A DNA stretch of 64,000 nt, from positions 13,392,001 to 13,456,000 of the forward strand of contig OZ024750.1 in NCBI GenBank assembly GCA_964016885.1. The letters run 5' to 3'. Below are positions 12,037 to 56,715 of this stretch, piece after piece; positions within the stretch are counted from its first letter, which is position 1, and each line of letters begins with the position of its first letter. Origin of the DNA: Eledone cirrhosa. Its lineage: Eukaryota. The position numbers and the translations under genes were made by a program. The notes under the pieces were generated by a model. That model was not told where the DNA came from and did not search any database. It saw only the letters and a program-made list of their open reading frames with translations.

Positions 12037-15000
12037 CTATTCCATTGTCAGCAGCACACTAATTCCTTTGGTTAGTTTTTCTATTTCAGCAGACAGTTCA
12101 GATACCTTAAAAAACAAAGCAAAACATCCAATTAACAATGTTTTCATCATCATCATCATCATGTTTATATTTATTTACCACACCACATTTTATTCTTATG
12201 CACAAAGAAAGCAAACTTAACAGTACATGTGTGTTATAAAAGCCAATATAGAGAAGTTTATTTTATAATTAGTGAAAACTGTGTTTTGGCTTACTTTTGA
12301 AGTATTTTGTTTCCTAACTTCTTCGGGAACTTTAGTTTCATAATCAGGTTTCTGTACAGACTCATTTAACTTGTTTAGTTGAGAAGCAAGTTTCTCTTTC
12401 TTGCCTTCCAGCTTAGAGATTTCTTTGTTAATATCAATAAGGCCCTAAAAATAGAAATATTCATAAAACAGTTAATATTATGTTACAAGTTTGGAGAAGG
12501 TATGTATTAAAATTTATCGATTGACTTTCGTCAAATTGGACCAAGGAAACAATGTTTCCGTTGGTCTTTCCAATTGCTAATATTGTCTATCAGTCACAAC
12601 TCTAGGTAGAAGGAGCAACATAAAATAAAGTGTCTTGCTCAAGGACATAACACATCGCCTGGTCGAGAAATCAAACTGACAACATCACAATTGTGAATCC
12701 AGTTCCCTAACCAATCAGCCACACGCCTTCAGGTATGTGTGTGTGTGTGTGTGTGTATTTAACAATCTGAAAAAGTGTCCTGCATGGCTAAGATCATACA
12801 AAATGAATAAAAAAAGGTGAACAAAGACATCAGAAAAAAGACAGACCCCACCATACACCAGTTGACTGCCAGAGGCCCCCGTGATATATATATATGTGTG
12901 TGTGTGTGTATGTGTATGTACGTATTAGTGGAAAACATTTCAAGAAATTAAAAGATCTATTTGTAGTTATGACCATTTATTGTTGATTACAGATTCTTCA
13001 AAGGAATGTTTAGGATGTCATTCATCAAGATTAGTGAATATATATGAATTATAATATCTTTATTTAATAATAATAATTATAATAATATGCTAAAAATAAG
13101 AAAATTAAAATCTAAAAAGTCAAAACTTATTTGTAAAATACAGAAAGAATACAAAATCCAATAAGCTTATAGTAGAACTAACAGCCTTGATAAATCCCAG
13201 GGAGATATACTGACTGCAGCTCCCTCTATCAGAAATTAAATAAAATAAAATAGTCGGGGTGGGTGGGAGAATAAACTCACATTGGTGAAAGGAAGATGCA
13301 GTAGAGGAAGACCACGAAAAATAGGGCGGAGGTGGTGAGAGCTGACCTTAGATCGCTGAAGCTCACAGAGATGACGACAAGGGACCATAACGAATGGAGA
13401 GATGCTGTGCTGAAGACGATCCGTCCCACCCTTGCAAGCAGGGAAAAGCGGACGTATGATGATGATGATGATGATGGAAATTAAAGTTGGGTGATTAAAT
13501 AGTTATAATATATAATTTCAATTCAGTTGTACCAAAGACCTCTCTAGTGTTGATGATAAGAAGGGCATCCAGCTGCAGTAAACCTGCCAAACAAGGGTCA
13601 ATTATGATATCTTTATTCAGAGTTTTTCAACAACAAAGAAAGAAGAGTAGATAAGGTTAATAAATTTGGTAGTTTGTCTCACCTTTAGCATTAAATGTGT
13701 TTCACATTTTGCTGATACAGTAATCATAGCACAACCAACTGGAGGTTCTTGGTTGATAAGTATATTTACATGGTCACTTGAAGAGAGGTTGGCAATTATA
13801 TCAACAAATGGTTTCAAAATACTGGCACTTTCTTCATCAGAACACTTTAAGTAAACTAGAAATAAAAATAGGATTATATTTAACAGCATCTGATTGGTTA
13901 AACTTAGAATCTCTTCATGTATGTACAATTAGCATTTATAACATCCTGCAATGATTCAGCAGATAATATCTAAAAATGGGTTTGTAAATTCAAATGTTTA
14001 TAGAATCTTTATTAGTAGATAGATTCTTTTTCATTTATTTGTTAGGCCAGTGCTTATCCCAGTTTCGTGGCATGAAGCGACTGAGAGTACAATACTTCCC
14101 GTGGACAGGACACCAGTCCATCGCAGGATTAAACTCCCAGCTATTGCTGGTAATCATTTTCAGCTGAGTATATAGGAGCAATGTGAAATGAAGTGCTTTT
14201 CTCAAGAACACAACACACAACCCAGCCCAGGAATTGAACCCAAGACATTATGATCATAAGTCCACCCTTTCACTACATAGTAAATTACTAAGACTTCAGA
14301 ATATCAGATTAGTTCCAATTAGTTGATAATAACTTACCGTCAGCTTTTGTCTTAGTCAAATTATAGTCTGCCCTCATTGACCTGATACTCTTTACAACAG
14401 ACTGCATAAACTCCACATTCTTCTCAATATCTGGATACCGATAGTTATACTAAACAGAAATAAAAATGTAAATAATAATAATAATACAATTTACAGTATA
14501 ATATAAGTAGAAACTCAATTACAATAAGGATTCTATTGTATTGAAATAGGAAATTCCTTGTTTTTACGTTGTATTGTCTCATGTGCATCTTTCCAGTGGC
14601 TTATTCAGCTGATGTGCAGCCTGGCCTCAATATTGTGCAAGAAATTGCATTGCCCAAGGGGTGGCTGAAGAGGAAGATAGACATTTGTTCTGTGTATTTT
14701 GTTTTTTTTTGTGTACAACTTTGCTATTTATTACTACTGTAATACTACACTCTCATTTTATGATTAACTAGCCGTTTATTAATTAAATAATAAGAGAAAG
14801 GGGATGGTAGGGACAGATTTTTCATTGCTGGTATATTTTAGCTATGTTCTGGAAAATAGATGGCAAAAGTATGGTCACAGAGAACAGACAGAGACACCTG
14901 CTATATCAGCCATGCCCCCTCACAGAGTTCCTTTCTCAGGCAGGATGCCTTCTTTATGATTTTATGGAGGAAAACAGCAGTCTATTGGTCTCGATAGTAA

Positions 15001-55500: not shown

Positions 55501-56715
55501 TAAATGCTAAGATTACTGAATCACTACCATGTCATATATTGTGTGCAGGTTATTGCATTATCAACAGTTTAAAGACTTCCCAAAAAAAGAATCGTTACTA
55601 TATTATGTTATATATTGTTCGCAGATTATCGCGTTACCAACAGTTTAAAGACTTCCAAAAAAGAATCTTAGTTGCGACTAATCTTTTTGGTCGTGGAATG
55701 GATATTGAAAGAGTGAATATTGTTTTTAATTACGACATGCCTGATGATTCAGATACATATTTACATAGGGTGAGTGAAATGACTTTTTTATTTGGTTTCA
55801 TTGTCTTACATTTTATTTGTCATTAAATCTTCTTGACTCTCTTTTAGGTCTTTTATTATTAACGGGCTTTATTGAATGTTTTCCCATGGACTGGGTTTAA
55901 AGAGCCTCGTTAGCATGTATCTGTTTTTATTCAGAGCTCCAATTGTCCTAAATTGGGTGGTCTCCTGTTCCAGAGTACTGTCCAAATAACAAATACTAAG
56001 TCAATTTGTTTTCAAATAAAAGACCAAAAGCATTTGAATCTCAATATTTTTTTTTTTTTTTTCATAGCAATAGAAAGATAAGCATAACTTGATAGTGAAA
56101 TATTGGGCGTTTTGGTAATTTTTCGTCCAGGTTTAAATACCGTAAGTAGCAAATTAGCAGGATTGTGGGAATGTCAGAATGCTTTCATGTCAATAAAAAG
56201 TACCAGTCCTGTATTGGGGTGATCAATTCTTTGTATATCTCTCTCACTTCCTCCACACAATACTGCCTCCAATGACTCCACCAGGAGTTGCAAGTGCATA
56301 TATACAAATAACTTGTATAGCAGGAGCTTCGTGGACATTCATGTGTCTAGATTGTTAGTGGACTATATAAGGAGTAAATTTCCATTTAAAAAAATGGTCT
56401 TTATTCTTATTTTACATATTATCTAAGAGATTTCTGTATTGTCTTAATATTAATAGGTTGCCCGTGCTGGTAGATTTGGTACAAAGGGTTTGGCTATTAC
56501 ATTTGTCTCAGATGAAAATGATGCCAAAGTTTTAAATGATGTTCAAGACAGATTTGAAGTCAATATTACAGAACTTCCTGATGAAATAGACATATCTTCA
56601 TACAGTGAGTATAACTTTGTTTATTATTTAAATAGTAGATTATTTTCCATGCTTATTTAAAACAAAATCTAATAATGCAATATCTTTTTTTTATCTTTCA
56701 GTTGAGGGCAGATAA
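49563..56715 (+). CDS. DDX39B: DECD-box RNA helicase UAP56/BAT1 (DDX39A/B pro-orthologue), 9 coding exons, about 427 aa
   Basis: Exons 49563-49770, 50839-50966, 51627-51906, 52731-52849, 54157-54288, 54699-54808, 55625-55769, 56457-56604, 56702-56715 (1284 nt). Motifs [62 protein letters not shown]. An acceptor at 49536-49537 implies an upstream non-coding exon. Confidence 0.97.
50090..50310 (-). mobile_element. CRE-clade (RLE) non-LTR retrotransposon relic in DDX39 intron 1
   Basis: GC-rich island. Minus strand [20 protein letters not shown] and, in another frame, [16 protein letters not shown]. Confidence 0.65.
52030..52430 (-). mobile_element. Degenerate mariner transposase fragment in DDX39 intron 3
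   Basis: Minus strand reads [23 protein letters not shown], matching the mariner motif EAPKHFPKPxLHQKKVMVTVWWS. It contains a stop codon. Confidence 0.75.

What the first reader, a model, noticed from the sequence alone, without database searches (positions are those of the whole stretch)
12037..56715. Candidate ancestral proto-MHC block VARS-PTGES2-BBLN-DDX39
Seen: four genes in 45 kb, arranged as two head-to-head pairs (VARS/PTGES2 and BBLN/DDX39) with no other gene found between them. Established: human VARS1 and DDX39B (BAT1) lie in MHC class III at 6p21.3, PTGES2 and BBLN/C9orf16 are near neighbours at 9q34.11, DDX39A is at 19p13, and 9q33-34 and 19p13 are MHC paralogons. Inference: this invertebrate keeps the interleaved pre-duplication order that reciprocal gene loss split between human chromosomes 6 and 9. 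That would be notable if the source is a coleoid cephalopod, since those genomes are heavily rearranged. Invertebrate proto-MHC linkage is a known concept, but I cannot tell whether this exact four-gene adjacency has been described.
Basis: partly seen in the sequence, partly recalled or inferred. Interest (0 to 1): 0.78.

Follow-up and report, generated by a model that had tools for sequence, protein, structure and literature searches.

The report
Ancient housekeeping gene cluster in octopus
Four ordinary housekeeping genes sit side by side in this octopus as two back-to-back pairs, and at least three are likely very old neighbours from the ancestral chromosome that later gave rise to the vertebrate MHC region, but this is not an immune locus and its order differs from the vertebrate one.

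Summary
Observation confirmed. Intact, single-copy VARS1 (-, 1051 aa), PTGES2 (+, 402 aa), BBLN (-, 101 aa) and DDX39 (+, 427 aa) fill 12037-56715 as two divergent pairs. Both head-to-head gaps keep CpG (o/e 0.90 and 0.96, against 0.26-0.30 in the three long gene bodies).

Interpretation partly supported. For old linkage: a non-cephalopod invertebrate contig (L107) has VARS and PTGES2 head-to-head about 380 bp apart, and PTGES2 and BBLN are direct neighbours in chimaera and lungfish gene tables.

The DDX39 link could not be tested outside the window. Four of five other proto-MHC markers lie on other chromosomes. Most flanking genes are likely from other linkage groups, and a run of four same-group genes is expected by chance. 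Argonauta has VARS on another scaffold. None of the four appears as such in an amphioxus block table.

Verdict: a likely conserved microsynteny of a known kind, likely held by shared promoters. Modest interest.

The parts
12037..32228 (-). VARS1, cytosolic valyl-tRNA synthetase, 27 exons, 1051 aa, no N-terminal GST-like domain
   Evidence: tree; the diverged second ValRS is on C19
32229..34342 (.). Head-to-head interval VARS/PTGES2 (2.1 kb between ATGs), CpG o/e 0.90; predicted shared promoter; start sites not mapped
34343..42213 (+). PTGES2 (mPGES-2), 6 exons: 34343-34657, 35967-36182, 38128-38327, 39481-39693, 40592-40706, 42064-42213; 402 aa
42214..45961 (.). Tail-to-tail interval PTGES2/BBLN, CpG o/e 0.20, no gene seen
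45962..48469 (-). BBLN (UPF0184, C9orf16 family), 2 exons: 48469-48344 and 46141-45962; 101 aa
48470..49562 (.). Head-to-head interval BBLN/DDX39 (1.1 kb between ATGs), CpG o/e 0.96; predicted shared promoter; likely holds a non-coding first exon of DDX39
49563..56715 (+). DDX39 (UAP56/BAT1) RNA helicase, 9 coding exons, 427 aa; single gene, so co-orthologue of vertebrate DDX39A and DDX39B (inferred)

Best explanation
These are four intact housekeeping genes in two back-to-back pairs, likely a surviving piece of an ancient gene cluster from the linkage group that later yielded the vertebrate MHC paralogons, and likely held together by shared two-way promoters rather than by any immune function. 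Shown: the genes, their orientation, CpG-retaining head-to-head gaps, VARS|PTGES2 head-to-head in one non-cephalopod invertebrate, and PTGES2/BBLN adjacent in two jawed vertebrates. Inferred: each gap is an unmethylated promoter driving both genes, so a break there is costly and the pair travels as a unit; the pairs can still be flipped or swapped, which would explain the orientation difference from vertebrates. The simplest reconstruction is that the vertebrate ancestor had the same two pairs in swapped order (BBLN|DDX39 then VARS|PTGES2); after genome duplication one copy would have lost the two inner genes, leaving BBLN|PTGES2 head-to-head, and another the two outer genes, leaving DDX39B and VARS1 in the MHC. 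DDX39's place in the old cluster is inferred, not tested.
For: L107, an 8.3 kb metagenome contig (53% GC), carries VARS (-, ATG 5589) and PTGES2 (+, ATG 5969) with exon borders at about the same residues as the octopus genes. Its VARS is about 73% identical to octopus, like any other bilaterian, and falls outside the cephalopod clade (100/96) and the sampled mollusc clade (92/98); grouping with cephalopods is rejected at p-AU 0.03; its PTGES2 groups with the annelid Perinereis (bootstrap 97). Chance of such a hit among the 10 of 80 loci with usable upstream DNA is about 0.01 even if only a 432-gene linkage group is shuffled. Holocephalan scaffold table: bbln and ptgesl adjacent, head-to-head, 862 bp apart; lungfish: consecutive rows, head-to-head. 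Octopus vulgaris and O. bimaculoides accessions for VARS, PTGES2 and BBLN are consecutive or close, VARS and its partner on one chromosome, and Argonauta BBLN and PTGES2 are consecutive on one scaffold. CpG o/e 0.90 and 0.96 in the two gaps against 0.27, 0.30 and 0.26 in the three long gene bodies. Irimia et al. 2012 report that most conserved ancestral pairs are 5'-5' with short gaps (passages).
Against: Only one outgroup locus shows VARS|PTGES2, its phylum is not fixed (placing it inside Mollusca is not rejected, p-AU 0.066, fast search), and 0 of 80 loci showed BBLN or DDX39, mostly for lack of flank. Argonauta hians has full-length VARS on a different scaffold from PTGES2 (3.94 Mb against 4.10 Mb). 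Locust VARS and PTGES2 are on different chromosomes and barnacle ones on different scaffolds; L111 has 10 kb on each side of PTGES2 with other genes. The table of 1,214 pan-amphioxus blocks (7,972 orthogroups) has no row labelled DDX39, PTGES2, BBLN or C9orf16, and its only VARS row sits with GTF2H4; many rows are unlabelled. Reedfish bbln and ptgesl are 176 Mb apart; VARS1 and DDX39B are 19-29 table rows apart in lungfish, reedfish and sawfish. No start sites or co-expression were measured, and the octopus and L107 gaps share no word of 12 bases.
Confidence: 0.6

Rival explanations
1. An old three-gene core (VARS, PTGES2, BBLN) plus a newcomer: DDX39 landed beside BBLN by shuffling within the same ancestral linkage group in the cephalopod line.
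For: No outgroup evidence for BBLN-DDX39 was obtained. Two other genes of the same group (CUTA, GAPVD1) lie within 50 kb of the window although about 250-350 gene numbers apart in amphioxus, so same-group genes do meet by shuffling here. Runs of four or more same-group genes are expected 1.4-2.8 times per 500-1000 genes at the local fraction of 0.25.
Against: The BBLN/DDX39 gap is short and keeps CpG like the older pair. The swapped-pair model needs a partner for BBLN's 5' end and DDX39 fits. I recall amphioxus cosmid work around BAT1/DDX39 and a Branchiostoma UPF0184 database entry, but could not read the paper, so this is a lead only.
Confidence: 0.22
2. One reading: the octopus order and orientation is the pre-duplication order, split between human chromosomes 6 and 9 by reciprocal loss.
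For: VARS1 and DDX39B are on the MHC chromosome and PTGES2 and BBLN on the chromosome-9 paralogon in basal jawed vertebrates; PTGES2 and BBLN are direct neighbours in both octopus and vertebrates.
Against: Vertebrate PTGES2/BBLN are head-to-head in 2 of 2 tables where adjacent, octopus tail-to-tail, so two inversions or a transposition are also needed. Other markers are dispersed and amphioxus shows no such labelled block.
Confidence: 0.12
3. All adjacencies are coincidences of shuffling within one linkage group; divergent housekeeping pairs form easily and recur.
For: The window was picked after the fact; the run of four is not significant; the pair is broken in locusts and apparently in Argonauta.
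Against: The L107 test was made after the hypothesis and has chance of about 0.01 or less; the PTGES2-BBLN match has about 0.005. Two such coincidences on one gene are unlikely.
Confidence: 0.06

Closest known systems
Conserved ancestral microsyntenic pairs of the co-regulation type, e.g. HSPE1/HSPD1 (Irimia et al. 2012, PMC3514665; passages read, supplement not available)
   Same: Unrelated housekeeping genes, 5'-5' orientation, short gap, linkage shared by distant animals.
   Different: Two such pairs side by side; in jawed vertebrates PTGES2 has a different divergent partner (BBLN instead of VARS). Whether this pair is in their list could not be checked.
Metazoan microsyntenies retained in coleoids (Schmidbaur et al. 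2022, PMC9023564; passages read, 7 supplements searched by gene name with 0 hits)
   Same: An old local gene group surviving the coleoid reshuffling; 275 such blocks reported in Euprymna.
   Different: Their criterion (three or more genes shared with six or more of 23 distant species) could not be applied; their old blocks tend to have long gaps and developmental genes, this one is compact and housekeeping.
Proto-MHC / ancestral linkage group behind human chromosomes 1, 6, 9, 19 (Abi-Rached et al. 2002, not readable, recalled; Asymmetron genome paper PMC13012124, section 14 read)
   Same: All four genes have vertebrate orthologues on the MHC chromosome or its chromosome-9 paralogon; BAT1/DDX39 is a named anchor gene.
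   Different: No immune genes; other anchors are not clustered here; this octopus has split the group over at least four chromosomes.

Membership tests
Proto-MHC linkage group | Vertebrate orthologues map to the MHC chromosome or its paralogons | tested here: met
   vars1 and ddx39b on MHC chromosomes of sawfish, reedfish and lungfish; PTGES2/ptgesl and bbln on paralogon-9 chromosomes or scaffolds. Human band positions are recalled.
Proto-MHC linkage group | Other anchor and framework genes linked in the same region | tested here: not met
   1 of 5 on the same chromosome (BRD, C10, 10.5 Mb away); PBX and PRRC2 on C1, CSNK2B on C3, GTF2H4 on C19. RXR, NOTCH, PSMB, C3 and CACNA1 not searched.
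Proto-MHC linkage group | Order matching a pre-duplication vertebrate order after gene loss alone | tested here: not met
   PTGES2/BBLN tail-to-tail here, head-to-head in chimaera and lungfish.
Conserved ancestral microsyntenic pair (VARS|PTGES2) | Orthologues adjacent in several distant lineages | tested here: inconclusive
   Octopuses plus one non-cephalopod contig; not adjacent in locust, barnacle assembly, L111 or Argonauta assembly; Sepia uninformative.
Conserved ancestral microsyntenic pair (VARS|PTGES2) | Conserved 5'-5' orientation with a short gap | tested here: met
   2.1 kb here, about 380 bp in L107.
Conserved ancestral microsyntenic pair (BBLN|DDX39) | Orthologues adjacent in distant lineages | not testable with these tools
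   No animal outgroup locus of either gene with flanks could be obtained.
Bidirectional promoter pairs | Divergent start sites within about 1 kb and correlated expression | not testable with these tools
   Only contigs of probable RNA runs were available; CpG retention is indirect.
Metazoan microsynteny (Schmidbaur 2022 definition) | Three or more orthologues, at most five intervening genes, shared with at least six of 23 distant species | not testable with these tools
   No animal genomes other than the window's own can be searched.
VARS1 (cytosolic) rather than VARS2 | Groups with cytosolic ValRS; separate mitochondrial paralogue elsewhere | tested here: met
   Nested among mollusc enzymes; a second, long-branched ValRS with a putative targeting exon lies on C19 beside GTF2H4.

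The most novel reading that the evidence does not exclude
Both promoter-sharing pairs date from the last bilaterian ancestor, and the tight BBLN|PTGES2 divergent promoter of jawed vertebrates is a fusion of the two ancestral promoters left when DDX39 and VARS dropped out of that copy after genome duplication: a traceable promoter partner swap by reciprocal gene loss, and a small exception to the reported absence of local order in the invertebrate proto-MHC.
Probability: 0.3. Interest if true: 0.5.

Novelty: new member of a known kind. Interest (0 to 1): 0.3.

Why it matters
If the cluster is as old as it appears, it gives one of the few gene-level anchors for how the pre-vertebrate MHC chromosome was partitioned after genome duplication, and a simple test case for whether shared promoters, not immune function, preserve such neighbours. 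It does not change views on MHC origin: hundreds of comparable blocks are reported in coleoids, and the genes are ordinary.

Tried and rejected
Accession proximity as proof of linkage: rejected as a stand-alone test, since locust VARS and PTGES2 accessions are 171 apart yet on different chromosomes; used only with matching contig lengths. Sepia pharaonis VARS and PTGES2 on different contigs: set aside, both models lack their 5' parts (332 and 97 residues), as an assembly break would give. Fused gene models among fetched proteins: none of 202 hit two of the window's genes. DDX39 scans of prokaryote genomes (4 loci) and viral contigs (1 locus) gave stray helicase loci with no VARS, PTGES2 or BBLN hit. 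BBLN homologue search found only 2 octopod proteins; the Atlas confirmed the family but gives no context. RNA support for the VARS half was not obtained; no RNA holder is on record as RNA. Rfam: 0 matches at gathering score, 1 weak bacterial match over a DDX39 exon, discarded. Origin of the vertebrate VARS GST-like domain from the neighbouring GST-fold PTGES2: considered and dropped untested, as the genes are on opposite strands. Literature: 10 searches; PTGES2+VARS+synteny gave 0 papers. Gene-name searches in supplements of PMC9023564, PMC8809688 and PMC8302630 (its file 4 not searched) gave 0 hits, but such tables may use species IDs. Abi-Rached 2002 is not held, and the Irimia supplement and bioRxiv supplements were not visible, so prior description cannot be excluded. 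Earlier scan findings: 4 look-ups, nothing relevant.
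Full report
Source and observation. The window lies on a 55 Mb sequence (C10) of a 3.0 Gb genome whose proteins are closest to Octopus and Argonauta. VARS runs 32228 to 12037 on the minus strand in 27 exons and gives 1051 aa, 92.9% identical to O. sinensis. PTGES2 runs 34343-42213 in 6 exons, 402 aa. BBLN runs 48469-45962 in 2 exons, 101 aa, the only UPF0184 match in the genome. 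DDX39 runs 49563-56715 in 9 coding exons, 427 aa, with joints seen in contigs from 4 of 4 probable RNA runs of related organisms. PTGES2 and DDX39 have no second close copy. A second, diverged ValRS lies on C19 beside GTF2H4, which makes the window gene the cytosolic VARS1.

Anatomy. The ATGs of VARS and PTGES2 are 2.1 kb apart, those of BBLN and DDX39 1.1 kb. CpG observed/expected is 0.90 and 0.96 in these gaps, against 0.27, 0.30 and 0.26 in the VARS, PTGES2 and DDX39 bodies and 0.20 in the tail-to-tail gap; the short BBLN intron is intermediate at 0.55. From general knowledge of invertebrate methylation this is the pattern of unmethylated promoters between body-methylated housekeeping genes. 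That the promoters are shared is an inference; start sites were not mapped.

Is the run of four more than chance? Not by itself. In 200 kb on each side I found, left to right, a spectrin/Ig giant-protein region, CUTA, an F-box/WD40 gene, an alpha-tubulin, then the block, then PCM1, GAPVD1, DBR1, an unnamed ORF group and a MAP3K-type kinase (names beyond the Pfam domain are my reading). Of the 8 named flanking genes 2 (CUTA, GAPVD1) belong to the MHC linkage group: in the amphioxus table their gene numbers fall in the range of the proto-MHC chromosome, about 250-350 numbers apart, while DBR1 is far outside it; the other five assignments rest on recalled human positions. With a fraction of 0.25, runs of four or more are expected 1.4 to 2.8 times per 500 to 1000 genes. 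Of 5 further markers, only BRD is on C10, 10.5 Mb away; PBX and PRRC2 are on C1, CSNK2B on C3 and GTF2H4 on C19. This fits the published fragmentation and mixing of linkage groups in coleoids (PMC9068888, passages).

Outgroup evidence for old linkage. A metagenome scan with a PTGES2 alignment matched 315 stretches, confirmed 196 and kept 80. Ten of the 80 look eukaryotic and have at least 1.4 kb upstream of the first match. One, L107, carries VARS head-to-head with PTGES2, ATGs about 380 bp apart, with exon borders at about the same residues as in octopus. It is not a cephalopod: 73% VARS identity to octopus, outside the cephalopod and sampled mollusc clades, cephalopod grouping rejected at p-AU 0.03, gastropod grouping at 0.04, membership of Mollusca not rejected at 0.066 (fast search, soft values). 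Its PTGES2 groups with an annelid, in a tree that had no gastropod or bivalve of known name. The chance of one such hit in 10 loci is about 0.01 under shuffling within a 432-gene group and 0.0003 genome-wide. None of the 80 loci hit BBLN or DDX39; most lack the flank to tell. In vertebrate gene tables from PMC10751288, bbln and ptgesl are adjacent and 862 bp apart on a holocephalan scaffold, and PTGES2 and BBLN are consecutive in lungfish. In O. vulgaris and O. bimaculoides the accessions of VARS, PTGES2 and BBLN are consecutive or close, and Argonauta BBLN and PTGES2 are consecutive on one scaffold.

Evidence against the strict reading. In both vertebrate tables where they are adjacent, PTGES2 and BBLN are head-to-head; in octopus they are tail-to-tail. 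Deleting genes from the octopus order cannot give that. In reedfish they are 176 Mb apart, and VARS1 and DDX39B are 19, 26 and 29 rows apart in lungfish, reedfish and sawfish. Argonauta has complete VARS on another scaffold, which may or may not be an assembly break. Locusts have the two genes on different chromosomes. L111 has IFT122 and other genes within 10 kb of PTGES2 and none of ours. The 1,214 blocks shared by five amphioxus species contain no row labelled DDX39, PTGES2 or BBLN, and the single VARS row sits with GTF2H4, so is probably VARS2; unlabelled rows weaken this. That paper states the proto-MHC genes are scattered over the whole chromosome.

How it most likely works. The conserved units are likely divergent pairs that share a promoter, the commonest form of ancient gene pair according to Irimia et al.. 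Pairs resist being split but can be flipped or swapped. If the vertebrate ancestor held the same two pairs in the order BBLN|DDX39, VARS|PTGES2, then losing the two inner genes on one duplicate gives exactly the compact BBLN|PTGES2 pair of the chimaera, and losing the outer two on another leaves DDX39B and VARS1 for the MHC, where they later drifted apart. The step that puts DDX39 in the old cluster is untested.

Comparison and novelty. It works like a conserved ancestral microsyntenic pair and belongs by gene content to the proto-MHC linkage group, but fails the tests of a clustered proto-MHC block. Old blocks surviving in coleoids are known in the hundreds (275 in Euprymna). I found no paper describing this adjacency in 10 searches, one of them PTGES2+VARS+synteny with 0 results, but the amphioxus cosmid papers and Irimia's list could not be read, and I recall that the cosmid work centred on BAT1/DDX39 among others. 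What I saw of papers: PMC13012124 section 14, passages and supplement file 1 (part 46 and searches); PMC10751288 passages and supplement rows; PMC9023564, PMC9068888, PMC8302630, PMC3514665, PMC1188056 and bioRxiv 2025.03.16.643586 passages only; PMC8809688 supplement search only. Verdict: real, probably ancient in part, a new member of a known kind, interest 0.3.

Noticed in passing
G000:C19:22149072-22188791 (loci L128-L132): The second ValRS (VARS2-like, plus strand) is head-to-head with GTF2H4 (minus strand), putative ATGs 277 bp apart. The two are near neighbours, in tandem, in white shark, catshark and sawfish and share a pan-amphioxus block: a second surviving pair from the same linkage group, with wider outgroup support than the block studied.
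   Followed up: partly
window 62344-63999 (-) and L001:9-4046 (-): PCM1, tail-to-tail with DDX39; the PCM1_C match continues into a 1346-codon open frame beyond the window, suggesting one coding exon of about 5.7 kb.
   Followed up: partly
L040-L030 (96-200 kb left of the window, - strand): A large gene or gene pair with SESTD1-like spectrin repeats followed by many Ig I-set exons (titin/sallimus-like by my reading).
   Followed up: no
L025:3808-4155 (-) and L002-L005 (+): CUTA and GAPVD1, two more genes of the MHC linkage group, lie within 50 kb of the window but far apart in amphioxus.
   Followed up: partly
window 51825-51835: DDX39 here has a one-residue insertion relative to human DDX39B and to the contigs of the 4 related runs.
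   Followed up: no
window 19122-19384, 21913-22256, 24443-24763, 27825-28384, 36637-37455, 60084-61136: Intronic and intergenic minisatellites with 41-48 bp and 24 bp units; a related short dispersed repeat near 30480-30790 has many genomic copies.
   Followed up: no
L107:4034-4366 and 7983-8343: In the outgroup contig, exon ends of both VARS and PTGES2 are duplicated in tandem into the neighbouring introns.
   Followed up: no
proteins P0150, P0168, P0172: Tunicate ValRS proteins carry GST-like domains, which I recall as a feature of vertebrate VARS1; the octopus and amphioxus proteins listed do not.
   Followed up: no
L123-L126: Four contigs in prokaryote genome assemblies carry eukaryote-type DDX39 genes (62-88% identity), probably contaminant DNA.
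   Followed up: no
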